From: Halomicrobium mukohataei DSM 12286
GTDB taxonomy: Archaea > Halobacteriota > Halobacteria > Halobacteriales > Haloarculaceae
Assembly: GCF_000023965.1 (NCBI RefSeq)
Contig: NC_013201.1
Location: forward strand, 120,001 to 152,000
Reading direction: 5' to 3'
DNA: 32,000 nucleotides
Position numbers and translations under genes: made by a program
Notes under the pieces: model-generated
Databases searched by the model: none
Told to the model about the DNA's origin: nothing
Seen by the model: the letters and a program-made list of their open reading frames with translations, nothing else
Part shown: positions 982-29,812 of the stretch, piece after piece
Position numbering within the stretch: position 1 is the first letter of the stretch
Layout: the number at the start of each line of letters is the position of its first letter

Positions 982-987
982 CCGCCA

Positions 988-2783: not shown

Positions 2784-2879
2784 CGATCCCCGAGGACCGA
2801 GAACAGAGACCAGATACCTCTCGAAGAGTGACCATCATGTCGAGACGCGGTCGAAACTCAGTACGGGACTGACAATCCG

Positions 2880-4290: not shown

Positions 4291-4576
4291 TGAAAGCATG
4301 ACATGCGGTGTCGCTTGAGAGGCGATCCGAAGCAGTTTCTGATCTCGGATTCGGTTGAAACCTCGCATCACAGGCTCGCTATCCCCGGTGTAGTCTCAAC
4401 ATCCCACTGGTGGATTTCTGTATATCGCTATGCACTTTATCACATCGCAAACTATACGCTCAGTACACTCTACTACACGAGAACAGACGAATCAGCCGAA
4501 ACAGCAATCACTCTTGATTCATCGAGGAATCGTAAGTAGATATTAGTGGATGGCCGCCGTCCGGTAAGCCGAGTCG

Positions 4577-5695: not shown

Positions 5696-6129
5696 ACCGA
5701 TGCCGTCGACCCGCACGGTTCGGCAATAGATGCCAAATTCGACGGCGAGACCGAACTGAACGACACGAAGATGGTTGCCCTCGACGAACTGGACGACTCC
5801 TGTCTCGAAGACCCGCTGGCGTACCCCATCGATCAGGCCATCACGTACTGTTTGATGTTGTAGACCGTACACGTCAGGACAATCTCACGGTACTATTCAC
5901 GCGCTCGTCCAGCAGAACCATGCGAATACTTCATAGCCAAATTAACGGGTTCGATCACAGCCCACTGAGTGTATCGTCGATTCTGGCGTTATGTGCGTGC
6001 CGTACGGTGCGATGATGCGGTATGAATCGATCGAAGTTGGATTATACGAATTCGTCACCACTGGAGTCTGATGACTGTGTCTTCAGCTACGATTCCAGTG
6101 CTGGCTACAGATTCAATATAAGCGTGTGA

Positions 6130-6138
6130 TCAAACCAT
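6130..6138. repeat. Target-site duplication TCAAACCAT, left copy, of the IS1595-family element
   Basis: An identical 9-mer abuts both terminal inverted repeats (6130-6138 and 7135-7143). Confidence 0.8.
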
Positions 6139-13213: not shown

Positions 13214-13609
13214 TCTGAACGGGTTCATCGATACGCGCCAGAGAGTCCCGCTGGCCGAACCGCCGTCGCAGTCGTCGCGTCTCTGATTGGCGTGCCGGCA
13301 GCGGTCGTCGGGTTCTTCGGACTGGTCGGTAACCTCGTGGCCGGATTCTTGCTCCTCGTCCCCGCTCTGGCGATGCTCTACGTCGCCGCGCAGCTAACGG
13401 TCGGTGTCGTCAAGCAGGCGAACGACGCCCCGAAACCCCGATTTCACGACGAGCGAGACGACGCGGCCGAGACACCAGTCGAAACCCTGCGACGGCGATA
13501 CGCCGAAGGCGAACTGAGCCACGAGGAATTTCGGCAACGCCTCGATCACCTTCTCGACACTGAGACGTCGAAACGAGCGTCCGACGAATGTGACCGTCTT
13601 CTCGAATAG
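13214..13609 (+). pseudogene. SHOCT-domain small membrane protein, 5' end apparently severed by the IS5 insertion
   Basis: Frame 2 encodes ...RTAVAVVASLIGVPAAVVGFFGLVGNLVAGFLLLVPALAMLYVAAQLTVGVV (two TM helices), then ETLRRRYAEGELSHEEFRQRLDHLL (SHOCT-like). There is no ATG before 13374. This frame upstream is IS sequence. An internal GTG at ~13291 could still give a shorter product. Confidence 0.5.
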
Positions 13610-14989: not shown

Positions 14990-15009
14990 ATTTTAGGCTA
15001 TCCTAAAAT
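14990..15009 (+). promoter_or_regulatory. Iron-box-like palindrome, site a: ATTTTAGGCTATCCTAAAAT
   Basis: Perfect 8-bp arms ATTTTAGG/CCTAAAAT with a 4-bp spacer. One of six related sites in the window. Confidence 0.6.
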
Positions 15010-15025
15010 CGAAGGCCATTTATCA

Positions 15026-15043
15026 CTTTAGGATGGACTAAAA
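15026..15043 (+). promoter_or_regulatory. Iron-box-like palindrome, site b: CTTTAGGATGGACTAAAA
   Basis: Degenerate copy of the same motif, 35 bp centre-to-centre from site a. Confidence 0.45.
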
Positions 15044-15090
15044 CCTACGGTGAAAGACGGCGGAGACGAGGCACGACCGACGCGAAGAAA

Positions 15091-15207
15091 ATGCATATTG
15101 GCGAGTGGTCGGGCGAGGTCACCGCCGACGAGCTGCCGACGATACCAGGGGACGAACGGCTGTTCGACCGCGAGGCGCTCGCAGCGGCCGTCACCGGGTC
15201 GAACTAA
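15091..15207 (+). CDS. Candidate 38-aa acidic small protein (MHIGEWSGEVTADELPTIPGDERLFDREALAAAVTGSN); alternatively part of a small RNA
   Basis: This is the only acidic, high-GC3 reading frame between the site a/b pair and the next promoter. It is followed by a short hairpin plus T-tract. It is below the length cutoff of the supplied ORF track, and I recognise no homology. Confidence 0.25.
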   Translation: MHIGEWSGEVTADELPTIPGDERLFDREALAAAVTGSN

Positions 15208-15228
15208 CCGCTGATCCGCGGTCTTTTC
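15207..15228 (+). terminator. Possible terminator: ACCGC-TGATCC-GCGGT hairpin followed by CTTTTC
   Basis: A 5-bp stem directly after the TAA of the 38-aa ORF, followed by a T4 run. This is weak evidence. Confidence 0.2.
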
Positions 15229-15322
15229 GCTGTCTCGCTGCACCGGTCGCTCCGGCGTTCCAGTCGCTCGAAACCACCGGACGACGACCTGACGGACGCG
15301 AGCGAGAGAAACACTTATTACG

Positions 15323-15340
15323 TTTTAGGCTAGCCTAAAG
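15323..15340 (+). promoter_or_regulatory. Iron-box-like palindrome, site c: TTTTAGGCTAGCCTAAAG
   Basis: The inner 16 bp, TTTAGGCTAGCCTAAA (15324-15339), form a perfect palindrome. It ends 8 nt before the GTG at 15349. Confidence 0.65.
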
Positions 15341-15348
15341 ATCAACGG

Positions 15349-17205
15349 GTGAAATTCTACATGAGAGACGAGGCCAGTCGTGGCGTCTCGAGTACAGCGG
15401 TCGAGCGGCTCCGGACGACCCTGCAGACGGACCGCTGGCAGAGCGCCGATCGTGCGCTGCTCGCGAAGATGCTCGCGGAGTTCACCTACGAGAAACTCCT
15501 CGACCCCGAGGAGTACGCCGTCGACGGCGACTGGCGCGTCTATCGCGTCCCGCTGGGCGACACCACCTACGAATTCCGGGCACAGGAGCGGGTCTTCGAC
15601 AGCTACCGCGTCGATTCGTCGTCGATCCGGAAACGCGTCGGCGACGGTGCGTGGACGGCGGCGAGCGACGCGATCCAGTTCCTGCTCGACGCTCGCGAGA
15701 CGCTGGGGATCGACGATCAGACGGCGAGTTACCTCGTCCGGGAGTACAACAACACGCTCCTGGCGGACACACACATCGACGCCGACGCCGCCGACGCCGC
15801 CGACAGCATCCTGGATCTCGACGCGATGGAGATCGAAGGGGAGATGCGGGGTCACCCGTGGTTCACGGTCAACAAGGGGCGTGTCGGTTTCGACTACGAG
15901 GACTATCTCCGGTACGCGCCGGAGAACCAGCGTCCCCAGTCACTGCAGTGGGTCGCAGTTCGCCGGTCCGAGGCGACGTTCGCGAGCGTCGACGGGCTCG
16001 ATTACGACGGGCTGATGGAGACACACCTCGGCGACCACGTCGGCGAGTTCGAACGCCTCGTCTCGGAGCAGGGTCTCGAACCCGCCGGGTACTACCTCAT
16101 GCCCGTCCACGAGTGGCAGTGGCGGGACACGCTGGCCCAGCTGTTCGCGCCCGCGATCGCGGCCGACGAGATCGTGCCACTCGGAGACGGCCCCGACACG
16201 TACCTCCCTCAGCAGTCGATCCGGACCCTCACCAACCGTTCGGACCCGACGAAACCACACGTCAAGCTTCCGATGCGGATACTGAACACGATCGTGTATC
16301 GCGGTCTACCGGGCGAGCAAGCGCTGGCCGCGCCCCGCGTGACGGCGGCGGTCAAGGAGATTCGCGATCGGGACCCGTTCCTCAGTGACGAGTGTGACCT
16401 CGTGCTCCCCGGCGAGATCGCGAGTATCAACTACGAGCACCCCCAGTTTTCCCAGCTCTCGGGCGCGCCCTACCAGTACCAGGAGCTGCTGGGCGCGGTC
16501 TGGCGCGAGAGCGTCCAGTCGTTCACGACGGCCTCCGAGCGGGCGGTACCACTCTCCGCGCTGTTCCACCGCGATCTCGACGGCTCGCCCATCGTCTCCG
16601 AGTTCGCCTCTCGGGCTGGGCTCTCGCTGTCGGACTGGATCGACGAGTTCCTCGACGTCCTCTTCGAGCCGTTGCTGCACTACCTGTACAAGTACGGACT
16701 GGTGTTCATGCCACACGGGACGAACGTCCTCGTGATCCACCGGGACGGACGCCCGGTCCGGATCGCGGTCAAGGACTACGTCGACGAGATCGCGCTGAGC
16801 GACGAACGCCTCCCCGAGGCGTCCGCGATTCCCGACGATCTGTACGATCATCCCGACATCCTCCATCAGAAGGGGCCAGAGGCGCTGTGTCAGCACATCT
16901 TTGGGACCGTGTTCATCTGTGTCCTCCGATACGTTTCCGACCTCCTCGAACGGGAAGTCGGCTACGAGGAGACGACCTTCTGGCGGCAGGTCCGGGACAG
17001 CATCGAGCGGTACCAGTCGGCACACCCGGACCTGGAGCAGCGCTTCGACCGCTTCGATCTGTTCGAACCCGAGTTTACCCGCCTCTGTCTGAACCGCGGC
17101 CGCCTGACCGACTACGGGTACAGCGACGATCCCGAGCCACCGGGTGTGACCGCTCACGGGACCGTGACGAACACGCTCGCCGAGTTGGGCGACGATAGCC
17201 GGTAA
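15349..17205 (+). CDS. IucA/IucC-family NIS siderophore synthetase, IucC/DesD-like subtype (stand-alone)
   Basis: N-terminus ADRALLAKMLAEFTYEKLL, then GHPWFTVNKGRVGF, QQSIRTL and the FhuF-like C-terminal half (MPHGTNVLV...KDYVDE). An alternative ATG start is at 15361. Confidence 0.85.
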   Translation: MKFYMRDEASRGVSSTAVERLRTTLQTDRWQSADRALLAKMLAEFTYEKLLDPEEYAVDGDWRVYRVPLGDTTYEFRAQERVFDSYRVDSSSIRKRVGDGAWTAASDAIQFLLDARETLGIDDQTASYLVREYNNTLLADTHIDADAADAADSILDLDAMEIEGEMRGHPWFTVNKGRVGFDYEDYLRYAPENQRPQSLQWVAVRRSEATFASVDGLDYDGLMETHLGDHVGEFERLVSEQGLEPAGYYLMPVHEWQWRDTLAQLFAPAIAADEIVPLGDGPDTYLPQQSIRTLTNRSDPTKPHVKLPMRILNTIVYRGLPGEQALAAPRVTAAVKEIRDRDPFLSDECDLVLPGEIASINYEHPQFSQLSGAPYQYQELLGAVWRESVQSFTTASERAVPLSALFHRDLDGSPIVSEFASRAGLSLSDWIDEFLDVLFEPLLHYLYKYGLVFMPHGTNVLVIHRDGRPVRIAVKDYVDEIALSDERLPEASAIPDDLYDHPDILHQKGPEALCQHIFGTVFICVLRYVSDLLEREVGYEETTFWRQVRDSIERYQSAHPDLEQRFDRFDLFEPEFTRLCLNRGRLTDYGYSDDPEPPGVTAHGTVTNTLAELGDDSR

Positions 17206-17410
17206 GCGACGAGAATAAACCGTGTGAAACGGTTCGCTCACCGACCGCACTGCCGTCGCGCTCGGGCGTGCAGTGACTTTCGACGGTTCCAGTCTATCCG
17301 CCGGCTGCTGACGGTCGGTTAGCTCTCGGTGTATTATTTCGAATATTTCGAGTTTCTAGGACTTTTCCGCGATTTTTTACTAGAACTCCAACTATTACCA
17401 GTAGCTTTTT

Positions 17411-17432
17411 GTTTTTAGGCAGGCCTAAAAAC
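17411..17432 (+). promoter_or_regulatory. Iron-box-like palindrome, site d: GTTTTTAGGCAGGCCTAAAAAC
   Basis: Perfect 10-bp arms. It lies at the end of an AT-rich 290-bp intergenic region, 7 nt before the ATG at 17438 and 65 nt before the dat GTG. Confidence 0.65.
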
Positions 17433-17496
17433 AATCGATGACGAGCCATCACACGCTGTCCGGAGGGACGGCCTCCCGGACCGGAGGTGATCGTGA

Positions 17497-18867
17497 GTGA
17501 ACTACGCTGACGCGACGGCCGACCAGTTGCTCGCCCAGCAGGCCGCTCGCGAATCGAGCGCGCGGACCTATCCGCGATATCTTCCGCTGGCGATCGAGAC
17601 CGCCTCGGGACTGACGGTCGTCGACGTCGACGGCAACGAGTACTACGACTGTCTCGCGGGGGCGGGGACGCTCGCTCTCGGACACAACCATCCGGCCGTC
17701 GTCGAGGAGATGGAGCGCGTGCTCGCCGACGGGCGAGCCATCCACACGCTGGACATCACGACGCCGGAGAAAGAGCGGTTCGTCGACACGCTGTTCGACT
17801 GTCTCCCCGACGAGCTGACAGACACCGCGAAGGTCCAGTTCTGTAGCCCCGCAGGGACCGACGCGGTGGAAGCGGCACTGAAGCTCGTCAGAACGGCCAC
17901 CGGAAATCGGCCGATCCTCGGCTTCCAGGGCGGTTATCACGGGATGACTGGCGAGGCGTTGAGCCTCATGGGCAACACCGGACCGAAGGAGTCCTTGCCC
18001 GGACTGTCCTCGGCCGTCCACCATCTCCCGTACCCCTACACGTACCGGTGTCCGTTCGGGGCGGGCGGCGACGAGTGCTGGCGAACCAGCGCCCGGTACG
18101 TCGAACGGGTGCTCGACGATCCCGCGAGCGGCGTCGTCTCGCCCGCCGGCATGATCTTCGAGTCGGTCCAGGGCGAAGGAGGGTCCGTTCCCGCGCCGGC
18201 CCCGTGGTTGCGCGAGATCCGGCGTCTCACCGACGAACACGACGTGCCGCTGATCGCCGACGAGATCCAGACCGGGCTCGGTCGCACCGGAGAGCTGTTC
18301 GGCTTCGAGCACGCCGACATCGTCCCCGACGTCGTCACCGTCTCGAAGGCCGTCGGCGGTGGGCTTCCGCTCGCGGTCGTCGTCTACGACGAGGAACTCG
18401 ACGGGTGGGAGCCGGGAGCGCACGCGGGGACGTTCCGTGGCAACCAGCTCGCGATGGCGGCCGGAACGGTGACTATGCGACACGTCCTCGACAACGACCT
18501 CGATGCACACGCCGCAGCGATGGGCGAGCGGCTCCGCGAGCGTCTCGAAGACACCGCTGCGATCAGCGAAGCGGTCGGAGACGTTCGGGGACGTGGCCTC
18601 ATGCTGGGCGTCGAGTTCGTCGATCCGGCCGGCGAGCCCGGCCCGCAGGGCCATTACCCGCCCGACGGCGACCTCGCAGAGCGCGTTCAGGCCGAGACGT
18701 TCGATCGCGGGCTCATCGTCGAGACCGGCGGGCGCGACGGCGCGACCGCTCGGTTCCTCCCGCCGTTGGTCGTCTCCCCGAGACAGGTCGACGACATCGC
18801 CGAGCTGTTCCACCGCAGCGTTCGCGCGGCGATCGACGCCGACGAACGCGCGGAGGTGCTCGCATGA
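17497..18867 (+). CDS. dat: Diaminobutyrate-2-oxoglutarate aminotransferase (class III PLP aminotransferase)
   Basis: LAGAGTLALGHNHP, ESVQGEGG, DEIQTGLGRTG and the PLP-lysine context TVSKAVGGG. GTG start with GGAGGTGA 5 nt upstream. First gene of a chain coupled by ATGA overlaps. Confidence 0.85.
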   Translation: MNYADATADQLLAQQAARESSARTYPRYLPLAIETASGLTVVDVDGNEYYDCLAGAGTLALGHNHPAVVEEMERVLADGRAIHTLDITTPEKERFVDTLFDCLPDELTDTAKVQFCSPAGTDAVEAALKLVRTATGNRPILGFQGGYHGMTGEALSLMGNTGPKESLPGLSSAVHHLPYPYTYRCPFGAGGDECWRTSARYVERVLDDPASGVVSPAGMIFESVQGEGGSVPAPAPWLREIRRLTDEHDVPLIADEIQTGLGRTGELFGFEHADIVPDVVTVSKAVGGGLPLAVVVYDEELDGWEPGAHAGTFRGNQLAMAAGTVTMRHVLDNDLDAHAAAMGERLRERLEDTAAISEAVGDVRGRGLMLGVEFVDPAGEPGPQGHYPPDGDLAERVQAETFDRGLIVETGGRDGATARFLPPLVVSPRQVDDIAELFHRSVRAAIDADERAEVLA

Positions 18868-20375
18868 GCGGCGGGGCTCCCGACGCGACGGAGCGCCTGG
18901 ACCAGCCACCGGTCGACGACGCGTTCCTCGGGAGCGACGAGGGAAACCGCGCGTACGCGGCTGCGGCCGACGCGGCGACACGCGCCGTCGTGACCGCGAC
19001 CGACCGCGCGACGCCGTACTCCGGCGCTGACCCCGACACGCTCCGCGACCGGTTCGCGGGACGGCGTGTCCTCCCCGAGCGCGGGCAGTCTGTCGAAGAG
19101 ACGCTCGGCGAGGTCACGGACGAGGTGCTCTCGTCCGTCGTCGGCGTCTTCGACCCGGACTGTGTCGCTCACCTCCAGTGTCCGCCGACGATCCCCGGAC
19201 TCGCGGCCGAAACGCTCGTCGCGGGGACGAACCAGTCGATGGACTCGTTCGACCAGGCCCCAGCGCCCTCCGTCTGCGAGGAGCGGGTCGTCGACGCGCT
19301 CTGTGACCTCCTGTCGTTCCCTGCCGGCGCTGACGGCGTGTTCACGAGCGGCGGCACCCAGTCGAACCTCCAGGGCCTGCTCTTGGCCCGGGAGTGGTAC
19401 TGTCGGGAGCGACTGGACTGTGACGTACAGACCGAGGGGCTCCCCGCCGACGCCGACGACCTCCGAGTCGTCACCTCCGAGGCGGCTCACTTCACCGCGG
19501 CCCAGGCTACGGCACAGTTGGGTCTCGGCGAGGACGCCGTCGTCGAGGTCCCAACTGACGACGGCTACCGGATGGACCCGGACGCGCTGGACGCGACCCT
19601 CGCGGATCTCACAGCGGCGGGGTGCCGACCGTTCGCGCTGCTGGGGACCGCAGGGACGACCGACCACGGTGCCGTCGACCCGCTCCCGGCACTCGCCGAC
19701 CGCGCAGCCGAGCACGACCTCTGGTTCCACGTCGACGCCGCCTACGGCGGTGCGCTGCTGCTCTCAGAACGCGAGCGGTCGACGCTCGACGGGATCGACC
19801 GAGCGGACTCCGTCGCGGTCGACTTCCACAAGCTGTTCTACCAGCCGATCAGCTGTGGGGCCTTTCTGCTCGGAGACGGCAGCCAGTTCCGGCTACAGGA
19901 CCGCAACGCGGCGTACCTCAACCCCGAGGCCGACGACGAGGCGGGCGTCCCGAACCTCGTCGGGAAGTCCCTCCAGACGACCCGTCGGTTCGACGCCCTG
20001 AAACCGTACGTGACGTTCCGAACGCTGGGACGCGAGCGCCTCGCCGACTGGGTCGAGTACGTCGTCGACCTCGCGACCGCCGTCGGCGACGACGTTCGTG
20101 ACCACCCCGAGCTCGAACTGGTGTGTGAACCACAGCTGAGCACCGTCCTGTTTCGCTACCGGCCCGACGAGGGCGATCCGGACGAGATCAACCCGGCCAT
20201 CCGCGATCGGCTCCTCCGGGCGGGGCGGGCGGTGATCGCCCGCACCGAAGTCGGCGGGACGGCGACGCTCAAGTTCACCCTGCTGAACCCGCGCGCGACG
20301 CGCTCGTCGCTCCGCGCGCTGCTCGAATCGGTCGTCGAACACGGCACCGAGATCGAACGAGAGAGATCGACATGA
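18864..20375 (+). CDS. ddc: L-2,4-diaminobutyrate decarboxylase (group II PLP decarboxylase)
   Basis: The ATG at 18864 overlaps the dat stop (ATGA). Motifs include SGGTQSNL, HVDAAYGG and DFHKLFYQP (PLP Lys). I discard the Arg-rich 5' extension of the listed 18048 ORF. Confidence 0.85.
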   Translation: MSGGAPDATERLDQPPVDDAFLGSDEGNRAYAAAADAATRAVVTATDRATPYSGADPDTLRDRFAGRRVLPERGQSVEETLGEVTDEVLSSVVGVFDPDCVAHLQCPPTIPGLAAETLVAGTNQSMDSFDQAPAPSVCEERVVDALCDLLSFPAGADGVFTSGGTQSNLQGLLLAREWYCRERLDCDVQTEGLPADADDLRVVTSEAAHFTAAQATAQLGLGEDAVVEVPTDDGYRMDPDALDATLADLTAAGCRPFALLGTAGTTDHGAVDPLPALADRAAEHDLWFHVDAAYGGALLLSERERSTLDGIDRADSVAVDFHKLFYQPISCGAFLLGDGSQFRLQDRNAAYLNPEADDEAGVPNLVGKSLQTTRRFDALKPYVTFRTLGRERLADWVEYVVDLATAVGDDVRDHPELELVCEPQLSTVLFRYRPDEGDPDEINPAIRDRLLRAGRAVIARTEVGGTATLKFTLLNPRATRSSLRALLESVVEHGTEIERERST

Positions 20376-22177
20376 CGCGACTGACACGACACTACGACGA
20401 CTCGGCGCGCGAGATCGCGCGCCACGCCACGACGCACAGCTTCCTGAACTGCTACTGCCACGAGACTGCCAGTGGGGCGTTTCGACCCGCCGACGAGACG
20501 CCGATCGACACCGAGGGGACCGTCCTGTACTGTCCCCTCGAAGCCCAGGGCATCGACCTGTACGCGCGGGTCGCACACCGCTCGCCGACCGGGCGCCACC
20601 TCTTCGAGACGCCGGTGCAGTACCGCGTCGAGGAGACGATCCACGACTGTGACTACCTCACGCTCGCGACGCTCCTGACCAAGGAGCTCGAACTGACGCG
20701 CGGGGGCGACGCCGATCGGGACGAGCTGCTCGCCCGTGTCGTTTCGAGCTGTCGGGCGACGGCGCGGTTCGTCGACGCCCGTCGTGGCGACGACGCGCTC
20801 ACCGATCCCGAGGCGACGTTCCGCGAGGCCGAACAGTCGCTCGTGTTCGGCCACCTCATGCACCCGACCCCGAAGAGCCGGCGCGGGATGGGCCGAGACG
20901 GGCCGCGCTACGCGCCCGAGCTCGGGACGAGCTTCTCGCTGCACTACGTCAGCGCCGATTCGGCCGTCGTCGAGCAGGCGTCCACGCGCGAGCACAGCGC
21001 CGCCGAGTGGGTCGCGTCGGCCCTCCGAGACGATCCGACCGTCTCCGACGACGTCGTCGACCGCCACGTCGACGACGGGCGCGTCCTCGTTCCGCTTCAC
21101 CCCTGGCAGGCCCAGTACCTGCTCGACCGGGAGCCGGCACGGAGCTTGCTCGCCGACGGGCGTCTCGAATCGCTCGGAGCGATCGGCCGGGAGTTCGCAC
21201 CGACCTCCTCGGTGCGGACGCTGTACGCGCCCGAGTCCCCGTTCATGGTCAAGGGCTCGCTGGCGGTCAAGATCACGAACGCCGAGCGGACGAACAAGCG
21301 CCCGGAGTTGGACCGTGGCGTCGCGATCTCGGAACTGCTCGACACCGAACTCGGAGACGCGATCGACGATCGATTCCCCGCGTTCGACGTGATCCGAGAC
21401 CCCGCCTATCTGACCGTCCAGAGCGAGAGCGCCGAGTCCGGGTTCGAGGTCGTCCTCAGAGAGAACCCGTTCGCTCCGTCGGGCCGGCGGCGAGCGACGC
21501 CGGTCGCGGCGCTGTGTCAGGACGCCATTGCGGGGGCGTCCCGCCTGGAGCGGGTCGTTCGCGACATCGCACAGCGAACGGGGCAAAGCCCCGACGCGGT
21601 GAGCGTCGACTGGTTCGAGCGGTATCTGGAGACGGCGATCCGGCCGGTCCTCTGGCTGTTCCTCGAATGGGGGCTCGGACTGGAGGCCCACCAGCAGAAC
21701 ACGGTCCTGACGCTCGACGACGACGGCTATCCGGACCGTGCCTTCTACCGCGACAACCAGGGGTACTACTTCCCGGAGGGTGCCTACGATCGGATCGACG
21801 CCGTCTGTCCCGGCGTCGGCCAGCGGGCCGACACGATCTGCCCGGACGCCGTCGCCGACGAGCGGATCCGCTACTACGTCGTCCTGAACAACGCCTTCGG
21901 CGTGATCAACGCCTTCGGTACCGCCGGGCTGGTGGACGAACGTCGGCTCCTCGAACTCCTGCGCGACCACCTCTCGTCGCTCCGGCAGTTCGACCGTCCG
22001 TCCTCGTCGCTGCTCGACCCGCTCCTCCAGTCCGAGACCGTCCCACGCAAGGCGAACCTGCTCACGCGGTTCCGCGGACTCGACGAACTCGACGCCCCCT
22101 CGCTGGACGACCAGTCGGTGTACGCTGCCGTCCCCAATCCCCTGGTCGAGGAGTTCTCACAGGCGGTGATGCGATGA
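20372..22177 (+). CDS. iucA: IucA/IucC-family NIS synthetase, IucA-like paralogue 1
   Basis: ATTHSFLNCYCHET, EAEQSLVFGHLMHPTPKSRRG, HPWQAQYL, TSSVRTLY, EAHQQN. ATGA overlap with ddc. Confidence 0.85.
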   Translation: MTRLTRHYDDSAREIARHATTHSFLNCYCHETASGAFRPADETPIDTEGTVLYCPLEAQGIDLYARVAHRSPTGRHLFETPVQYRVEETIHDCDYLTLATLLTKELELTRGGDADRDELLARVVSSCRATARFVDARRGDDALTDPEATFREAEQSLVFGHLMHPTPKSRRGMGRDGPRYAPELGTSFSLHYVSADSAVVEQASTREHSAAEWVASALRDDPTVSDDVVDRHVDDGRVLVPLHPWQAQYLLDREPARSLLADGRLESLGAIGREFAPTSSVRTLYAPESPFMVKGSLAVKITNAERTNKRPELDRGVAISELLDTELGDAIDDRFPAFDVIRDPAYLTVQSESAESGFEVVLRENPFAPSGRRRATPVAALCQDAIAGASRLERVVRDIAQRTGQSPDAVSVDWFERYLETAIRPVLWLFLEWGLGLEAHQQNTVLTLDDDGYPDRAFYRDNQGYYFPEGAYDRIDAVCPGVGQRADTICPDAVADERIRYYVVLNNAFGVINAFGTAGLVDERRLLELLRDHLSSLRQFDRPSSSLLDPLLQSETVPRKANLLTRFRGLDELDAPSLDDQSVYAAVPNPLVEEFSQAVMR

Positions 22178-22803
22178 CCGCGCCCGCCACGTCGGTCGGC
22201 CGCGACGACAGCTTCCGGGCCCACGACGAGACGATCGACCGGACGATCGCGTTCCGTCCGGTCTCGCTGTCCGAGGATCTCGGCCGGCTGCACGCGTGGC
22301 TCAACGCCGAACACGTCCAGCCGTTCTGGGACCTGGCAGAACCGCTGTCGGTGTTTCGAGAGACGATGGCGGGGAAGCTGGCGACCGAGGGCGTGGGCTG
22401 TTACGTCGGATCGGTCGATCACGTCCCGATGAGCTACTGGGAGTGTTACTGGGCGACAGACGACGAGGTCGGCGAGCACTTCGACGCGAACCCGACCGAC
22501 CAGGGGCTCCACCTCCTCGTCGGCCCGCCGGAGTTCGTCGGACAGGGGCTGGCCGTCCCGCTCGTCAGAGCGATGCTGCGCTTTCAGTTCACACACGCCG
22601 AGACCGACCGGATCGTGGTCGAGCCCGACGTTCGCAACGAGGTCGTCAGACACGTGTTCAGACGCTGTGGGTTCGAACCGGTCCGAGAGATCGCCATGGA
22701 CGAGAAAGACGCGATGCTCATGTACTGCCACCGCGAGACCTTCGAGGAGACGATCTGGCCCGACGGCCGCGCCGCAGTGGCGGAGGTGAGAGCGAATGAC
22801 TGA
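22174..22803 (+). CDS. iucB: Siderophore N-acyltransferase (IucB/AlcB/DesC-like GNAT)
   Basis: The ATG at 22174 overlaps the preceding stop. Motifs include FRPVSLSEDLGRLHAWLN..HV.PFW and HLLVGPPEFVGQGL. Confidence 0.8.
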   Translation: MTAPATSVGRDDSFRAHDETIDRTIAFRPVSLSEDLGRLHAWLNAEHVQPFWDLAEPLSVFRETMAGKLATEGVGCYVGSVDHVPMSYWECYWATDDEVGEHFDANPTDQGLHLLVGPPEFVGQGLAVPLVRAMLRFQFTHAETDRIVVEPDVRNEVVRHVFRRCGFEPVREIAMDEKDAMLMYCHRETFEETIWPDGRAAVAEVRAND

Positions 22804-24145
22804 GACCGACCGTGGCCACGTCGACGTCCTCGGTGTGGGACTCGGACCGTTCAACCTCGGGCTCGCGGCCCTGCTCGCGGACACGGACGTCGAGGCGGCG
22901 TTCCTCGAACAGGCGTCGGCGTTCGCCTGGCACGAGGGGATGCTCATCGAGGGAGCGACCCTCGAAGTGCCGTTCCTCGCGGATCTGGTCACGCTCGCCG
23001 ATCCGACCAGTGAGTACAGCTACCTCAACTACCTGCGCGAGACCGACCGCATCTACGAGTTCTACTTCTACGAGACGTTCCAGGTGCCTCGTCGGGAGTA
23101 CGACGCCTACCTCGGCTGGGTCGCGGATCGACTCGACAGCTGTCGGTTCAGCCGCCGGGTCACGAGTGTCACCGAGATCGATGCAGGCTTCCGGGTCGAA
23201 GCCGTCGACCCGGAAACCGGCGAGCGGTACGCGTTCACTGCCGACGACCTCGTCGTCGGCGTCGGCTCACGGCCCTACGTTCCAGAGCAGTTCCGTGACT
23301 GTCTCGGCGACGCCGTCTTTCACACCGCACAGTACCGCGACCGCCGCGACGGCGCTCTCGACAGCGACGCGATCGCCGTCGTCGGTTCCGGCCAGAGCGC
23401 CGCCGAGGTCGTCTTGGATCTGCTCGAACGCCAGACCGATCACGGCTACCGCCTCGACTGGCTCACCCGGTCGGACGGTTTCTTCCCGATGGAGTACTCG
23501 AAGCTCGGCCTGCAACACTTCACCCCGGAGTACACGCGATACTTCTCCGACCTCGATCGGGAGACCAGAGACGAGACGCTCTCCGAGCAGGACCTCCTGT
23601 ACAAGGGGATCGACGTGCAGACGAGCGCACGGATCTACGACACGCTGTACGAGCGGTCTATCGGTTCGCGCGATCCCGACTTCGGGATGCTCGCGACGAC
23701 CGCCGTCGAGGATATCGAGGCGACCGACGACGGGTACCGTCTCACGTGCCACCAGACCCAGCAGGACGAGCGATTCGTCCACGAGGTGGCGACGGTCGTC
23801 CTCGGGACCGGCTACCACCGGCCGACGCCGTCGTTCCTGGGACCGCTAGAAGACGCGCTCGAACGCGATCCGAAGGGGCGGCTCCGTATCACCGAAGAGT
23901 ACCGCGTCGAGAGCGACTGTACGGGGCGGCTGTTCGTCCAGAACGCCGGGGTCCACACCCACGGCGTCGGCACCCCGGATCTGGGTCTGGGCTGTTACCG
24001 CAACGCCGTCATCGTCGAACAGCTCACCGGCCGCGAGGTGTATCCGATCGACGAGGACACGGTCTTCCAGGACTTCGACGTCGAACAGTTCCTCGCCGAT
24101 ACGTCCGCCGAGCGCGTCGGCAACCACTACGGAGGCCGCCGATGA
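22796..24145 (+). CDS. iucD: Diamine/lysine N-hydroxylating flavin monooxygenase (IucD-like)
   Basis: N-terminal FAD motif DVLGVGLGPFNLGLAALL and a second dinucleotide motif VVGSGQSAAE. 8-nt overlap with iucB. Confidence 0.85.
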   Translation: MTETDRGHVDVLGVGLGPFNLGLAALLADTDVEAAFLEQASAFAWHEGMLIEGATLEVPFLADLVTLADPTSEYSYLNYLRETDRIYEFYFYETFQVPRREYDAYLGWVADRLDSCRFSRRVTSVTEIDAGFRVEAVDPETGERYAFTADDLVVGVGSRPYVPEQFRDCLGDAVFHTAQYRDRRDGALDSDAIAVVGSGQSAAEVVLDLLERQTDHGYRLDWLTRSDGFFPMEYSKLGLQHFTPEYTRYFSDLDRETRDETLSEQDLLYKGIDVQTSARIYDTLYERSIGSRDPDFGMLATTAVEDIEATDDGYRLTCHQTQQDERFVHEVATVVLGTGYHRPTPSFLGPLEDALERDPKGRLRITEEYRVESDCTGRLFVQNAGVHTHGVGTPDLGLGCYRNAVIVEQLTGREVYPIDEDTVFQDFDVEQFLADTSAERVGNHYGGRR

Positions 24146-25917
24146 ACGCGAACGAACGTGCGAGGGCAGCCACGACGCACAGTTTCCTCAACTGCTATCT
24201 CCGTGAGACGGGTGCGTACGCCGTTCGCTCGGCAGAGAATACCCCGCTCGACGCGGATCCCGAGGAGGCGATCCACGTCCACTTCGAGACGCAAGGCGTC
24301 GACCTGTTCGTCCCGCTGGCGTACGAGTCCCCGACGGGCCGCCACCTGTTCGACCTGCCCGGCGTCTACCGGCTCCCGGACGGCGAGGTACTGAAACTCA
24401 CCTATCCGACGCTCGTCACGCTGGTGACGACGGAACTGGCAGCGGCGCGGAGTGGCTCGGGTGCCGCCGACGAACTGCTACTGCGGGTCATCCAGAGCTG
24501 CAAGAACGTCGAACGGTTTGTTGAAGCACGCCGTGGTGACGGGCTCGATAGCTTCGAGACGACGTTTCTCGAAGCCGAACAGTCGCTCGTCTTCGGTCAC
24601 CACCTCCACCCGACGCCGAAGAGCCGGGAAGGGATTCCACCACACAAGCGCGAGACGTACGCGCCGGAACTCGGCGGCTCGTTTCGACTGCACTACTTCG
24701 AGGTAGCCCCTTCGCTCGTAGAGCACGGCTCGGCGCTGACCGAGAGCGCGCCGGAGTGGATCGAACGGGCGCTCCGTGCCGACGATGCCGTCGACGAGTC
24801 CTTCGTCGCCGACCACGTTGACGGAGACGGCATCCTGATCCCGGCCCATCCCTGGCAGGCTGACTATCTTGAATCACAGCCACACGTTCGAGAGCACCTG
24901 GGTGATGACATCGTCTCGCTCGGCCCGGTCGGTCAAGTCTTCCATCCGACCTCCTCCGTCCGGACGCTGTACAGCCCAGACGCGCCGTTCATGGTCAAGA
25001 CGTCCCTCGGCGTCCGGATCACGAACTCCAAGCGAGTGAACAAGCGGCGCGAGTTGGACCGAGGAGCCGCCATCACAGAACTGTTCGATACGGCACTCGG
25101 ACGGACGGTAGACCGAAAGTTCCCGTCATTCGACATGCTCCACGACCCGGCGTACCTGACAGTGAACGTGGGAGGCGGGCCGGAATCCGGATTCGAGACC
25201 GTCCTCCGGAAGAACCCATACCAGGGCGACGCCGGAGCAAACGTCATGCCAGTCGTTGCCCTCTGTCAAGACGGCGTCGCTGGCATCTCACAGCTGGAGA
25301 CGATCGTCCGGACGCTGGCCGAGCGTGAGGGCCGTACGACCGAGGCGGTCAGCAAGGACTGGTTCGAACAATACCTGCAGACGGCAATCCGCCCCGTCCT
25401 CTGGCTGTACCTCGACTGCGGACTCGGCGTTGAAGCCCACCAGCAAAACGGCGTGCTCGAACTCGAAGACGGCTATCCCACGAGCTTCGCGTACCGCGAC
25501 AGCCAGGGGTACTACATCCCCGAGTCCGCGGCCGACGACCTCGACGCGCTCCTGCCAGGCGTGTGTGATCGAACGGACACCGTCTGTCCCGACGCCATCG
25601 CGGACGAACGGGTGCGCTACTACGTCGTCCTGAACAACGTCTTTGGCGTCGTCAACGCGTTCGGGACCGCAGGTCTGGTCGACGAGCGGGCCTTGCTCGA
25701 CGTATTCCGGACGGAACTGGAACACCTCCGACAGTACGACCACGCAGCATCGTCGCTCCTGACTGACCTGCTCACTGCAGAAACGATCAGTTGCAAGGCG
25801 AACCTACTGACGCGGTTCCACGACATGGACGAACTCACCGGGTCGCCCGAGACACAGTCGGTCTACACCGAGATTGACAACCCACTTGTCGCGACACAGG
25901 AGGCAAGTCAGCTGTGA
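24142..25917 (+). CDS. iucC: IucA/IucC-family NIS synthetase, IucA-like paralogue 2 (occupies the iucC position of the conserved haloarchaeal operon)
   Basis: The ATG at 24142 overlaps the iucD stop. Motifs ATTHSFLNCYLRET, EAEQSLVFGHHLHPTPKSREG, HPWQADYL, TSSVRTLY, EAHQQN are collinear with the 20372 paralogue. Confidence 0.8.
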   Translation: MNANERARAATTHSFLNCYLRETGAYAVRSAENTPLDADPEEAIHVHFETQGVDLFVPLAYESPTGRHLFDLPGVYRLPDGEVLKLTYPTLVTLVTTELAAARSGSGAADELLLRVIQSCKNVERFVEARRGDGLDSFETTFLEAEQSLVFGHHLHPTPKSREGIPPHKRETYAPELGGSFRLHYFEVAPSLVEHGSALTESAPEWIERALRADDAVDESFVADHVDGDGILIPAHPWQADYLESQPHVREHLGDDIVSLGPVGQVFHPTSSVRTLYSPDAPFMVKTSLGVRITNSKRVNKRRELDRGAAITELFDTALGRTVDRKFPSFDMLHDPAYLTVNVGGGPESGFETVLRKNPYQGDAGANVMPVVALCQDGVAGISQLETIVRTLAEREGRTTEAVSKDWFEQYLQTAIRPVLWLYLDCGLGVEAHQQNGVLELEDGYPTSFAYRDSQGYYIPESAADDLDALLPGVCDRTDTVCPDAIADERVRYYVVLNNVFGVVNAFGTAGLVDERALLDVFRTELEHLRQYDHAASSLLTDLLTAETISCKANLLTRFHDMDELTGSPETQSVYTEIDNPLVATQEASQL

Positions 25918-28573: not shown

Positions 28574-29755
28574 TCAGGCGCTGTCCGTGACGATCTCGGC
28601 GACGCGCTGGTGGTCGAACAGCTGGTCCTCCGTAAAGATGTCTGGGAAGAACGACTGGGCGAACCGTTCGAGCAGGAAGAGGTTGTGGAGCGGCCCCGCG
28701 TAAATCGGACCGCCACGGAACACTGTCTCGTTCTCGACGGCAGTCAACTGGCTGGCGACGGAGTGCTCTCGCATGAACGAGAGGACCGTGTTACGGAACT
28801 CTTCTCTGGACTTGTCGCCGTGGCCACGGAGGAGGATTGCGTCCGGGTCGACTTCGAGCAGCGTCTCGTAGTCGAGAGTGCCTCGGTCCGTGGTCGAGAG
28901 GCCGTCGACGCCGGTACCAGCGAACGCGTCGGTGATCCCGAGCGTGTGGAAGTGCTCCTTGTTCGCGCCCTTTCCAGAGAGCCGGTACGGATAGAACTCT
29001 TCGGGCTCGTTCTCGCCCTGCCACACCAGCGCAGCGTTCGGCCGCGCGTCCGGCCCCGGCACCCGAGCTTCGACATCGGCGACGACGTCGTCGTGAATGG
29101 ACCGGATCGCCTCGTAGCGCTCGCGTTCCTGGAAGACCGCCGCAACTTTCTCGAAAGCCTCGTACAGGGTGTAGTAGCGATACGTGTGCCAGTCGTCCGT
29201 CCGGCGGAAGATCGTGTTCCCGAAGAACGGTGCAATCTCGGACTCTAACTCCTCGATGTCTGACTGTTCGATGTTCTTGTACTTGTTGACGAGGAGGTTC
29301 GGATCCATCAGGTGCAAATCCCCTCCGATGTCGTAGAACACCTCCTTGGCGATACCGTCGCTGTATAGCTGTGTCAGTGCTGATACGTCTATCGAGACCC
29401 CATCCAGTTCGTCGTAGTGACGCGTAACGTAACGGGACTTGTACCAGACGGACTCCACTGCATCGCCGTGGCCCAGTGCAACCATCATGTCGATGTAGTC
29501 CGGATTGTAGACCGTCACCGACTCAGGGACACTGTCGAACTCGACGTCGCCTACTGGTTCCATCGTGACCGTGTACGACCGATTCTCCGTAGTGGTCTCG
29601 GCCTGGGTCTCAGAGGTCGTCGGTTGCTCCGTCGAGATCGACTCCGATTCGCTCTCGGAACAGCCGGCGAGAAGGCCGACGCCGAGGAGTGTGGTGCCGC
29701 CTTTGATGTATTCTCTGCGCGTCGGTACCCGGTGCGTGGTGTCATCCAGCGCCAT
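28574..29755 (-). CDS. Iron-siderophore-type ABC substrate-binding lipoprotein (FhuD/BtuF-like, PBP type 8), Tat-exported
   Basis: Twin-arginine motif TRREYIK and lipobox LLAGCS, then a Ser/Glu/Thr linker and a periplasmic-binding-protein body (ILLRGHGDKS..., GGPIYAGP). Two iron-box-like palindromes lie immediately upstream. Confidence 0.8.
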   Translation of the reverse strand: MALDDTTHRVPTRREYIKGGTTLLGVGLLAGCSESESESISTEQPTTSETQAETTTENRSYTVTMEPVGDVEFDSVPESVTVYNPDYIDMMVALGHGDAVESVWYKSRYVTRHYDELDGVSIDVSALTQLYSDGIAKEVFYDIGGDLHLMDPNLLVNKYKNIEQSDIEELESEIAPFFGNTIFRRTDDWHTYRYYTLYEAFEKVAAVFQERERYEAIRSIHDDVVADVEARVPGPDARPNAALVWQGENEPEEFYPYRLSGKGANKEHFHTLGITDAFAGTGVDGLSTTDRGTLDYETLLEVDPDAILLRGHGDKSREEFRNTVLSFMREHSVASQLTAVENETVFRGGPIYAGPLHNLFLLERFAQSFFPDIFTEDQLFDHQRVAEIVTDSA

Positions 29756-29757
29756 AA

Positions 29758-29776
29758 TTTTAGGCTAACCTTAAAA
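29758..29776 (-). promoter_or_regulatory. Iron-box-like palindrome, site e: TTTTAGGCTAACCTTAAAA
   Basis: Lies 2 nt upstream of the binding-protein ATG (minus strand). The minus-strand reading contains AGGTTAGCCTAA. Confidence 0.6.
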
Positions 29777-29794
29777 TACAAAAGCGTGTCGAAT

Positions 29795-29812
29795 TTTTAG
29801 TCTTACCTAAAA
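29795..29812 (-). promoter_or_regulatory. Iron-box-like palindrome, site f: TTTTAGTCTTACCTAAAA
   Basis: Second copy, about 36-37 bp centre-to-centre from site e. This matches the paired spacing of sites a and b. Confidence 0.5.

What the first reader, a model, noticed from the sequence alone, without database searches (positions are those of the whole stretch)
15322..17432. Shared palindrome TTTTAGG-N4-CCTAAAA sits on both siderophore-biosynthesis promoters (candidate DtxR/Idr-type iron box)
One AT-rich palindrome occurs six times in this GC-rich window, always in intergenic DNA:
- 14990-15009 ATTTTAGGCTATCCTAAAAT
- 15026-15043 CTTTAGGATGGACTAAAA
- 15323-15340 TTTTAGGCTAGCCTAAAG (inner 16 bp perfectly palindromic)
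- 17411-17432 GTTTTTAGGCAGGCCTAAAAAC (perfect 10-bp arms)
- 29758-29776 TTTTAGGCTAACCTTAAAA
- 29795-29812 TTTTAGTCTTACCTAAAA

The two copies covered here end 8 nt before the GTG of the stand-alone IucC-like gene and 7 nt before an ATG at 17438. The upstream half-site therefore starts about 25 nt before the first start codon. That is roughly where a TATA box would sit on a leaderless haloarchaeal mRNA, so a bound repressor would compete with TBP/TFB.

TTAGG-N4-CCTAA equals the first 14 nt of the classical DtxR/IdeR operator consensus TTAGGTTAGCCTAACCTAA. The minus-strand reading of the 29758-29776 site contains AGGTTAGCCTAA, identical to consensus positions 3-14. Haloarchaea encode DtxR-family metal regulators (Idr1/Idr2, SirR, TroR), but none is encoded in this window.
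Basis: partly seen in the sequence, partly recalled or inferred. Interest (0 to 1): 0.75.

Follow-up and report, generated by a model that had tools for sequence, protein, structure and literature searches.

The report
Haloarchaeal iron-repressor (TroR-type) operator boxes
The repeated palindrome is real and matches the published binding site of the iron-sensing repressor TroR of salt-loving archaea, so it most likely switches off siderophore synthesis and uptake genes when iron is plentiful; it is a correct rediscovery of a known element in one more species.

Summary
TTTAGG-N4-CCTAAA with at most 2 mismatches gives 6 hits against about 0.1 expected, even when only the AT-richer intergenic DNA is shuffled.

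The window is Halomicrobium mukohataei JP60 plasmid NZ_CP039376.1. The consensus matches the experimentally defined TroR motif of Haloferax volcanii, TTTAGGC-NNN-CCTAAAANAN. That motif rests on ChIP-seq, RNA-seq and a reporter on the siderophore locus (PMC10783522).

The box lies upstream of the dat gene in 47 of 47 further haloarchaeal genomes and in 0 of 32 bacterial dat loci. The plasmid holds 15 boxes against about 0.6 expected. Ten of them sit on all six siderophore-biosynthesis or siderophore-type binding-protein promoters, one of which belongs to a decayed gene.

The geometry is conserved. The order is an optional distal box, a BRE-like CG, a TATA-like TTT(T/A), about 4-5 bp, the proximal box, 2-10 nt, then an ATG. 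The proximal box therefore lies between TATA and a probable leaderless start.

The DtxR-family reading is supported, with four corrections:
- The regulator is TroR-type, not Idr.
- The full 19-bp DtxR/IdeR box is not matched.
- TATA lies upstream of the box rather than under it.
- ATG 17438 opens a 20-codon upstream ORF, not the aminotransferase gene.

That upstream ORF, overlapping the dat start as GTGA or ATGA, is conserved in 22 of 27 genera. I found no description of it.

The parts
14990..15009 (.). Distal box of a tandem pair (ATTTTAGGCTATCCTAAAAT)
   Evidence: It starts 35 bp before the 15027 core, within the usual 33-37 bp spacing.
15009..15022 (+). BRE-like tCGAa (15009-15013) and TATA-like cATTTA (15017-22), in the gap between the two boxes
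   Evidence: Sequence. The positions match the conserved CG (-18/-17) and TT (-9/-8) of 58 aligned dat promoters. Inferred, not mapped.
15026..15043 (.). Proximal box of the pair (CTTTAGGATGGACTAAAA, 1 mismatch)
15091..15207 (+). 38-codon remnant of the C-terminus of an ABC substrate-binding protein. The tandem boxes upstream are the promoter of a decayed uptake gene.
   Evidence: tblastn hits fall inside annotated haloarchaeal ABC substrate-binding protein genes (47-57% identity, E down to 1e-5). By eye it resembles the C-terminal end of the intact window binding protein. No Pfam hit.
15314..15319 (+). TATA-like CTTATT, 4 bp upstream of the 15324 box core
   Evidence: Sequence. Same position (-10 to -5) as the conserved TATA-like element. 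Inferred.
15323..15340 (.). Single box on the promoter of the stand-alone IucA/IucC-family gene (TTTTAGGCTAGCCTAAAG)
   Evidence: Orthologous IucC-like genes of Hgm. borinquense and Hst. larsenii also carry a box upstream.
15349..17205 (+). IucA/IucC + FhuF-domain siderophore synthetase gene. The start is either GTG 15349 (9 nt after the box core) or ATG 15361 (RefSeq).
   Evidence: Pfam PF04183 at 1e-73 and PF06276. RefSeq start. The start codon is not resolved.
17405..17410 (+). TATA-like CTTTTT upstream of the dat-operon box
   Evidence: Sequence. Position agrees. Inferred.
17411..17432 (.). Single box on the dat operon promoter (GTTTTTAGGCAGGCCTAAAAAC). The perfect arms extend to 12 nt (17409-17420 and 17423-17434).
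17438..17500 (+). 20-codon upstream ORF (MTSHHTLSGGTASRTGGDRE). Its ATG lies 8 nt after the box core, and its TGA overlaps the dat GTG as GTGA. The transcript is probably leaderless.
   Evidence: The same arrangement is found in 43/58 promoters and 22/27 genera, against 1.2% in shuffled leaders.
17483..17492 (+). Shine-Dalgarno-like GGAGGTGATC, inside the 3' end of the upstream ORF and 5 nt before the dat GTG
   Evidence: Sequence. A GGAGG-like stretch recurs at this place in most leaders. Complementarity to the 16S 3' end is from general knowledge.
17497..25917 (+). [quoted passage not shown]
   Evidence: Pfam and RefSeq. Same gene order as HVO_B0046-B0041, which is one iron-repressed ~9 kb transcript in Hfx. 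volcanii.
28574..29755 (-). Peripla_BP_2 substrate-binding lipoprotein gene, homologous to HVO_B0047 (45% identity over the full length)
29758..29776 (.). Proximal box of the binding-protein promoter. On the minus strand the core ends 3 nt before ATG 29755.
   Evidence: Same layout as the dissected Hfx. volcanii hvo_B0047 promoter.
29779..29784 (-). TATA-like CTTTTG (minus strand) between the two boxes
   Evidence: Position as. Inferred.
29795..29812 (.). Distal box of the binding-protein promoter, 37 bp from the proximal box

Best explanation
The palindrome (t)TTTAGG-YNRG-CCTAAA(a) is the operator of an iron-sensing DtxR-family repressor. It is the counterpart of the TroR box of Haloferax volcanii.

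Proposed mechanism:
- When iron is sufficient, a metal-loaded repressor dimer binds each box, one half-site per monomer.
- The promoter-proximal box lies about 4-5 bp downstream of a TATA-like element and 2-10 bp upstream of the first ATG. In these mostly leaderless organisms that ATG marks the transcription start.
- A bound dimer therefore covers about -25 to -5. It should block RNA polymerase recruitment or promoter opening.
- Where a second box is present, it starts 33-37 bp upstream and sits just beyond the BRE-like element. The two dimers then bracket BRE and TATA.
- When iron is scarce the repressor leaves, and the siderophore synthesis genes and the siderophore-type binding-protein genes are transcribed.

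The two promoters inside the finding's coordinates (IucC-like gene and dat operon) each carry only the proximal box.

Shown here: sequence identity with the TroR motif, conservation, promoter geometry and association with iron genes.
Shown elsewhere, in Hfx. volcanii: TroR occupancy, derepression in Delta-troR, and loss of iron control when both boxes are mutated.
Inferred: that the same happens in Halomicrobium, which protein does it, and the exact transcription starts.
For: Motif identity:
- The consensus from 135 unique boxes is TTTAGG[C/T]N[R][G]CCTAAA(A). The published TroR motif is TTTAGGC-NNN-CCTAAAANAN, with tandem copies about 30 bp apart.

Orthologous promoters:
- The Hfx. volcanii pHV3 locus has boxes at the hvo_B0047 promoter (tandem, 36 bp apart, 4 nt before the ATG) and before dat.
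- The window's binding protein is 45% identical to HVO_B0047 and has the same promoter layout.

Conservation:
- A box lies upstream of dat in all 10 other plasmid-borne loci and in 47/47 genome loci. It is upstream of dat in 0/32 bacterial loci.

Regulon coherence on the plasmid:
- There are 15 boxes against about 0.6 expected.
- Ten sit on all six siderophore-biosynthesis or Peripla_BP_2 binding-protein promoters, one of them decayed.

Geometry:
- T is invariant at -8 and near-invariant at -9, within a TATA-like element. CG is conserved at -18/-17. An ATG follows the proximal box within 2-10 nt.
- The haloarchaeal promoter elements TTWT and CGAAA, and 72% leaderless transcripts, are reported.

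Statistics.
Against: - No experiment exists for Halomicrobium.
- The H. mukohataei chromosome, where a TroR orthologue would be encoded, could not be searched here. The presence of the regulator is therefore assumed.
- Transcription starts are inferred from ATG positions and TATA-like elements, not mapped.
- The Hfx. volcanii paper summarises the motif as about 100 nt upstream of start codons. Here, and at hvo_B0047, the proximal box lies 2-10 nt from an ATG.
- In Hbt. salinarum siderophore genes were assigned to Idr1/Idr2, and TroR bound some promoters only under iron starvation. Regulator assignment may therefore differ between genera.
- Five of the 15 plasmid boxes lie next to genes with no recognisable iron function.
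Confidence: 0.85

Rival explanations
1. The boxes are operators, but in Halomicrobium they are read by a different metalloregulator than a TroR orthologue. Candidates are an Idr- or SirR-type paralogue, or the 154-aa non-canonical DtxR-like protein encoded on the same plasmid.
For: - Haloarchaea carry 1-6 DtxR paralogues.
- In Hbt. salinarum siderophore genes were attributed to Idr1/Idr2.
- The plasmid encodes a DtxR-like protein (PF01325). One exact box lies in the intergenic region upstream of it (L003 47095).
Against: - In Hfx. volcanii only Delta-troR, not Delta-idr or Delta-sirR, derepressed the dat gene.
- The published Idr motifs are unrelated to this palindrome. One of them is at chance level here, with no copy in the box-bearing promoters.
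- The box next to the plasmid regulator ends 8 nt before the divergent gene's ATG and lies 139 nt from the regulator's start.
- The Haloferax orthologue of that regulator has no box within 6 kb.
Confidence: 0.1
2. The palindrome is itself a basal promoter element, a special TATA/BRE variant read by one of the multiple haloarchaeal TBP/TFB paralogues. It would mark an iron-starvation promoter class rather than a repressor site.
For: - The arms are T/A-rich (TTTTAGG).
- The left arm of the proximal box lies about 20-25 nt before the first start codon, near where TATA boxes sit.
- Haloarchaea have several TBP and TFB genes (general knowledge).
Against: - A separate TATA-like element with an invariant T and a BRE-like CG is conserved upstream of the proximal box.
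- The element is a strict palindrome and often occurs a second time upstream of BRE. Neither is expected of a directional TATA/BRE.
- In Hfx. volcanii, mutating both boxes abolished iron-dependent repression. Deleting troR left the intact promoter constitutively high.
Confidence: 0.03
3. The palindromes act as RNA hairpins (terminators, processing sites or 5'-UTR structures) or are remnants of a mobile element's inverted repeats.
For: - Two copies can form stable hairpins as RNA (-9.2 and -11.3 kcal/mol).
- The region is rich in transposase genes.
Against: - The other four copies fold weakly (-2.0 to -4.9 kcal/mol), because the loop and mismatches vary while the half-sites stay fixed.
- The boxes lie upstream of the inferred starts.
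- There are no Rfam matches.
- The boxes are conserved at orthologous promoters across 27 genera, not next to transposases.
- The conserved positions are the two hexamers, as expected for protein contacts, not stem complementarity in general.
Confidence: 0.02

Closest known systems
TroR cis-regulatory motif of Haloferax volcanii (Martinez Pastor et al., NAR 2024, PMC10783522)
   Same: - Same consensus: TTTAGGC-NNN-CCTAAAA.
- Same target genes: the dat-bdb-iucABDC operon and a siderophore-type binding protein.
- Same tandem arrangement (33-37 bp start to start here, '~30 bp' in the paper).
- Same promoter layout at the orthologous hvo_B0047 promoter.
   Different: - Different organism and family (Halomicrobium, Haloarculaceae), with no experimental data.
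- The two promoters in the finding's coordinates have a single box.
- This cluster has an extra stand-alone IucC-like gene with its own box.
- The paper summarises the motif as about 100 nt upstream of start codons. Here the proximal box is 2-10 nt from an ATG.
Classical DtxR/IdeR 19-bp iron box (TTAGGTTAGCCTAACCTAA) of Corynebacterium and Mycobacterium
   Same: - The TTAGG-N4-CCTAA core equals positions 1-14 of the consensus.
- Same regulator family.
- Same logic: a metal-loaded repressor on iron-uptake promoters.
   Different: - The full 19-mer is not matched: 4-7 mismatches, and the outer CCTAA is absent.
- The symmetry axis lies between positions 7 and 8 of the 14-mer rather than on position 10.
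- From general knowledge, the 19-bp box accommodates two overlapping dimers. The haloarchaeal box looks like a single-dimer site, and a second dimer is supplied by a separate box about 36 bp away.
MDR1 of Archaeoglobus fulgidus, an archaeal DtxR homologue (Bell et al. 1999, as cited in PMC3074139)
   Same: - An archaeal DtxR-family repressor.
- Its operators lie at or after TATA and act on an archaeal TBP/TFB/RNAP promoter. Blocking of polymerase recruitment is from general knowledge.
   Different: The operator sequence is different, GTT-N8,9-AAC. The organism, metal and target operon also differ.
Overlapping-gene translational coupling by termination-reinitiation (Huber et al. 2019, PMC6728339) and 5'-UTR small ORFs in Hfx. 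volcanii (PMC10117724)
   Same: - The upstream ORF ends in ATGA or GTGA on the dat start, the overlap class shown to couple translation.
- Small ORFs in 5' UTRs that extend into the next gene have been noted in Hfx. volcanii.
   Different: - Here the upstream partner is a non-conserved 16-26 codon peptide on a probably leaderless mRNA, placed directly after a repressor box.
- It was not mentioned in any held paper that I searched.

Membership tests
Haloarchaeal TroR box (Hfx. volcanii TroR motif) | Sequence TTTAGGC-NNN-CCTAAAA, a semi-palindrome with 6-7 bp arms and a 4-bp centre counted from TTTAGG | tested here: met
   Six window sites have 0-1 mismatch to TTTAGGN4CCTAAA. The consensus of 135 boxes is.
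Haloarchaeal TroR box (Hfx. volcanii TroR motif) | Location in non-coding DNA upstream of iron-uptake or siderophore genes, often in multiple copies | tested here: met
   All six sites are intergenic. They lie before the IucC-like gene, the dat operon, a Peripla_BP_2 binding protein and a decayed binding-protein gene. Across the plasmid, all three intact Peripla_BP_2 genes carry tandem boxes.
Haloarchaeal TroR box (Hfx. volcanii TroR motif) | Same boxes at the orthologous promoters of the species in which TroR binding and repression were demonstrated | tested here: met
   Hfx. volcanii pHV3 carries boxes at L006 3234/3270 (hvo_B0047 promoter) and at 4572/4881 (before dat). The binding proteins are 45% identical.
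Haloarchaeal TroR box (Hfx. volcanii TroR motif) | A TroR orthologue encoded in the same genome | not testable with these tools
   Only the plasmid could be retrieved. It carries one non-canonical DtxR-like gene.
Haloarchaeal TroR box (Hfx. volcanii TroR motif) | Iron-dependent occupancy by the regulator and derepression when it, or the boxes, are removed | not testable with these tools
   This needs ChIP, EMSA or reporter experiments in H. mukohataei. It is known only for Hfx. volcanii.
Classical 19-bp DtxR/IdeR iron box | 19-bp palindrome TTAGGTTAGCCTAACCTAA centred on position 10 | tested here: not met
   The best alignments of the six sites have 4-7 mismatches. No conservation is seen beyond the A-run that flanks the 16-bp core.
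Classical 19-bp DtxR/IdeR iron box | TTAGG / CCTAA recognition pentamers separated by 4 bp | tested here: met
   TTAGGN4CCTAA with <=1 mismatch recovers all six sites.
Idr1/Idr2 motifs of Halobacterium salinarum | WCGAS[C/A]TCGW or GTT-N8,9-AAC near regulated promoters | tested here: not met
   WCGASMTCGW gives 12 hits against 6.7 expected. None lies in the box-bearing promoter regions. The palindrome is unrelated to either motif. GTT-N8,9-AAC was not scanned because it is too degenerate.

The most novel reading that the evidence does not exclude
It opens a 16-26 codon upstream ORF whose TGA overlaps the dat start codon as ATGA or GTGA.

This box-ATG-uORF-NTGA-dat module is conserved in 22 of 27 haloarchaeal genera. 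The peptide sequences are not conserved.

The reading is that expression of the whole siderophore operon depends on leaderless initiation at a dummy ORF, followed by termination-reinitiation. This would be a translational layer stacked on TroR repression, and I found no description of it. A stronger version, in which the uORF tunes dat translation in response to iron or translational status, is not excluded but has no support.
Probability: 0.5. Interest if true: 0.45.

Novelty: new member of a known kind. Interest (0 to 1): 0.27.

Why it matters
The finding shows that a reader working from sequence alone recovered a genuine regulon signal. It extends the experimentally defined TroR box of Haloferax volcanii to Halomicrobium and, through the comparison made here, to 27 haloarchaeal genera. 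The promoter grammar is precise: distal box, BRE/TATA, proximal box, leaderless start.

That grammar can be used to annotate iron regulons, transcription starts and start codons in haloarchaeal genomes. It also explains how one or two repressor dimers can shut an archaeal promoter.

For the field the box itself is not news. The conserved upstream ORF coupled to dat is a modest new lead on how haloarchaea translate the first gene of a leadered operon.

Tried and rejected
- Leyn & Rodionov 2015 (PMC4285986) is the comparative-genomics paper on archaeal DtxR regulons and may already list these sites. It is not held, so I could not check whether H. mukohataei was covered.
- No supplements are held for the TroR paper or the Hfx. 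small-proteome paper. The held dRNA-seq supplements contain no entry for HVO_B0045-47. No mapped transcription start or ribosome-profiling evidence could therefore be obtained.
- I looked for a conserved RNA structure in the dat leader. RNAalifold on 20 equal-length leaders gave 0 pairs. The window leader folds no better than shuffles (z = -1.1). A riboregulator reading is rejected.
- The Rfam scan of the window gave no matches.
- The plasmid-borne DtxR-like protein as the box binder or as a conserved regulon member is not supported. It belongs to a ~155-aa family in which Pfam finds only the N-terminal domain. Its Haloferax orthologue lies next to DUF2249 and COX1-like genes, with no box within 6 kb.
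- The 54-codon GTG ORF at 15050 is Arg-rich and in the wrong frame, so it was rejected as a gene. The 38-codon ORF in another frame is a binding-protein remnant.
- The Idr motif WCGASMTCGW is at chance level.
- The first python attempt at the uORF null timed out on an unbounded loop and was rerun.
Full report
**Observation.** The six palindromes are at the stated coordinates with the stated sequences. TTTAGGNNNNCCTAAA with up to two mismatches finds exactly these six sites in 32 kb. Dinucleotide-preserving shuffles give 0.13 expected, and none of 100 shuffles reaches six. The shorter TTAGGN4CCTAA with one mismatch finds the same six.

The sites lie in AT-richer intergenic DNA, so I repeated the test on the 3,633 nt outside annotated genes (GC 0.53), shuffling each segment separately. 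That gives 0.07-0.11 expected, with a maximum of 2 in 2000 trials. No additional sites appear at three mismatches.

**Origin and gene content.** The window is 100% identical to Halomicrobium mukohataei JP60 plasmid unnamed1 (NZ_CP039376.1, 221,861 bp), positions 145420-177419. Pfam and RefSeq agree on the genes:
- a stand-alone IucA/IucC+FhuF gene (15349 or 15361 to 17205);
- the operon dat (17497-18867), bdb, iucA, iucB, iucD, iucC (to 25917);
- a polysaccharide deacetylase and a MATE exporter;
- a Peripla_BP_2 substrate-binding lipoprotein on the minus strand (28574-29755).

The 38-codon ORF at 15091-15207, downstream of the 14990/15026 pair, matches ABC substrate-binding protein genes of other haloarchaea. 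By eye it resembles the C-terminal end of the intact window binding protein. That pair is therefore the promoter of a decayed uptake gene. No DtxR-family gene lies in the window.

[quoted passage not shown] It was often present in more than one copy at siderophore and iron ABC-transporter promoters. The dat gene hvo_B0046 was derepressed in Delta-troR but not in Delta-idr or Delta-sirR. In the hvo_B0047 promoter, either of two tandem motifs about 30 bp apart sufficed for iron-dependent repression, and mutating both abolished it.

The window sites fit this motif base for base. A consensus from 135 unique boxes collected here reads (t)TTTAGG-[C/T]-N-[R]-[G]-CCTAAA(A).

The Hfx. volcanii locus itself shows a tandem pair 36 bp apart ending 4 nt before the HVO_B0047 ATG, plus boxes before dat. 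The window's binding protein is 45% identical to HVO_B0047 over its full length. Its promoter has the same layout: distal box, 20-bp gap with a TATA-like element, proximal box, 3 nt, ATG.

**Conservation.** All ten other plasmid-borne haloarchaeal dat loci that I fetched carry one to three boxes just upstream of dat. They are from Haloferax, Halobacterium, Halomarina, Natronorubrum, Halarchaeum, Halogeometricum, Halostagnicola, Haladaptatus, Halorussus and Haloprofundus.

A scan of one genome per species with the dat protein returned 47 haloarchaeal and 32 bacterial loci. All 47 haloarchaeal loci have a box within about 150 nt upstream of dat. None of the 32 bacterial loci has one upstream of dat. 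They show only three two-mismatch hits, one about 750 nt upstream and two inside or beyond the gene, in AT-rich DNA.

**The rest of the plasmid.** The whole plasmid, fetched in five pieces, holds 15 boxes with two or fewer mismatches against about 0.6 expected.
- Ten sit on six promoters: the two siderophore-synthesis promoters, all three intact Peripla_BP_2 binding-protein genes (each with a tandem pair ending 3-4 nt before the ATG), and the decayed one.
- The other five are next to small or hypothetical genes, one HTH-like fragment and trxA.

That is not met on the replicon that could be tested.

**Promoter geometry.** I aligned 58 dat promoters on the proximal box. Positions are counted from the first base of the 16-bp box core.
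- The distal box starts at -33 to -37, most often -36.
- A conserved CG lies at -18/-17 inside 'aaTCGa', resembling the haloarchaeal BRE CGAAA.
- A TATA-like 'cTTT(t/a)' lies at -10 to -5, with T invariant at -8 and near-invariant at -9.
- The box itself follows.
- An ATG follows 2-10 nt after the box.

The proposed haloarchaeal promoter elements are TTWT and CGAAA, and 72% of Hfx. volcanii mRNAs are leaderless (PMC4983044). The simplest reading is that transcription starts at or just before that ATG. The proximal box then covers about -25 to -5, and the distal box lies just upstream of BRE.

All four promoters in the window fit: CTTATT at 15314-15319, CTTTTT at 17405-17410, CATTTA at 15017-15022 and CTTTTG at 29784-29779 on the minus strand.

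For the proximal box, steric exclusion of RNA polymerase or of promoter opening is more likely. That is how the archaeal DtxR homologue MDR1 is understood to work (general knowledge, not tested here). The two promoters inside the finding's coordinates carry only the proximal box.

**Relation to the classical DtxR/IdeR box.** Nothing is conserved beyond the A-run that flanks the 16-bp core. The symmetry axis is also different. From general knowledge of DtxR/IdeR-DNA structures, two dimers share the 19-bp box, each reading pentamers 4 bp apart. On that basis the haloarchaeal box looks like a single-dimer site. This is an inference.

The published Idr1/Idr2 motifs of Hbt. salinarum (GTT-N8,9-AAC and WCGAS[C/A]TCGW) are unrelated. 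The second occurs here at chance level, with no copy in the box-bearing promoter regions. 'Idr-type' is therefore not the best label. 'TroR-type' is.

**Which protein binds in Halomicrobium.** This could not be settled. The plasmid encodes a 154-aa 'metal-dependent transcriptional regulator' with only the N-terminal DtxR domain recognised by Pfam. An exact box lies in its upstream intergenic region, but that box ends 8 nt before the ATG of the divergent gene. The regulator belongs to a widespread ~155-aa haloarchaeal family. Its Haloferax member sits next to DUF2249 and COX1-like genes, with no box within 6 kb. I therefore treat it as an unlikely binder.

**The ATG at 17438.** It does not start the aminotransferase gene. 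It opens a 20-codon ORF whose TGA (17498-17500) overlaps the dat GTG (17497-17499).

Across 58 promoters, 43 have an ATG within 12 nt of the box that opens a 16-26 codon ORF ending in ATGA or GTGA on the in-frame dat start. Nine have the ATG fused in frame to dat. Shuffled leaders give 1.2% and 2.0% respectively. A relaxed scan finds the overlap arrangement in 46 loci. It occurs in 22 of 27 genera.

The peptides are not conserved. Only three features are: the ATG, a GGAGG(TG) stretch before the dat start (GGAGGTGATC at 17483-17492 here) and the four-base overlap. There is no conserved RNA structure and no Rfam match.

The stand-alone IucC-like genes of Hgm. borinquense and Hst. larsenii show the same box-ATG-short ORF arrangement, with overlap or abutment.

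Overlaps of this kind couple translation by termination-reinitiation in Hfx. volcanii (PMC6728339). Small ORFs in 5' UTRs that run into the next gene have been noted there in general terms. I found no mention of this particular one. It supports the inferred leaderless start next to the box, and it is the only part of the locus that may be new.

**Verdict.** The element is a further instance of the already characterised haloarchaeal TroR box, so the finding itself is of low novelty.

Remaining uncertainties:
- the identity of the regulator in this organism;
- the exact transcription starts;
- the start codon of the IucC-like gene (GTG 15349 or ATG 15361);
- the function of the conserved upstream ORF.

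Noticed in passing
window 17438-17500 (and L006 4903-4953, L007 4900-4950, L016-L063): A short, probably leaderless upstream ORF (16-26 codons) starts 2-10 nt after the proximal box and ends in ATGA or GTGA on the dat start codon. It is conserved in 43-46 of 58 promoters and 22 of 27 genera, against 1.2% in shuffled leaders. The peptides are not conserved, and there is no conserved RNA structure.
   Followed up: yes
window 15044-15320: The DNA behind the tandem boxes at 14990/15026 holds only a 38-codon remnant (15091-15207) matching ABC substrate-binding protein genes. It is an iron-regulated promoter left on a decayed gene.
   Followed up: yes
window 15349 / 15361: RefSeq starts the stand-alone IucC-like gene at ATG 15361. 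An in-frame GTG at 15349 lies 9 nt after the box core, where other promoters have their leaderless ATG. The start codon is unresolved.
   Followed up: partly
L003 46492-47125 (plasmid 96492-97125): A 154-aa DtxR-like regulator gene (only PF01325 recognised) is divergent from a 287-aa membrane-protein gene. That gene's ATG is preceded at 8 nt by an exact box (47095-47110). The Haloferax orthologue of the regulator has no box nearby.
   Followed up: partly
L004 45241-45256 (plasmid 145241-145256, 164-179 nt before the window starts): A perfect 16-bp palindrome, ATTAGACTAGTCTAAT, lies about 56 nt upstream of the ZnuA-like metal ABC transporter operon whose 3' part opens the window (window 1-2783). 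It differs from the TroR box and may be the operator of another metalloregulator.
   Followed up: no
L003 44348, L003 45452, L004 45071, L005 42879: Further boxes on the plasmid lie next to genes with no obvious iron link: a 66-aa ORF, a 79-aa membrane protein whose ATG abuts the box, a site inside annotated RS16425, and a site 33 nt before trxA. They are possible new regulon members or chance two-mismatch hits.
   Followed up: no
L006 4572-4698 (Hfx. volcanii pHV3, between HVO_B0047 and dat): An exact box is followed after 3 nt by an unannotated 35-codon ORF (MAVSQDMGVSPAVTAAWFVEGEPPLMEVFRRAKAR). It is a candidate TroR-regulated small protein or leader.
   Followed up: no
L011 3197-3291 and L012 2001-2091: The stand-alone IucC-like genes of Hgm. 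borinquense and Hst. larsenii are also preceded by a box, an ATG 3-4 nt later, and a 24-codon ORF that overlaps (ATGA) or abuts (TAATG) the gene start. They are divergent from glnA2-like genes that carry their own box.
   Followed up: partly
window 2835-7060 and 12343-13218: Transposase genes and fragments (DDE_Tnp_1, IS1595) and an integrase-like ORF separate the metal ABC transporter from the siderophore cluster. This part of the plasmid is a mosaic.
   Followed up: no
window 7229-11701: A 1490-aa protein with a bacterial thrombospondin type 3 repeat (PF18884) and otherwise no recognised domains, followed by an overlapping 157-aa ORF.
   Followed up: no
window 30155-30705: Two small acidic proteins ending in Cys-Cys are annotated as halo-CC-star proteins HcsS and HcsL. 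HcsL matches the YlbF/YmcA family. They lie directly upstream of arsA on the minus strand.
   Followed up: no
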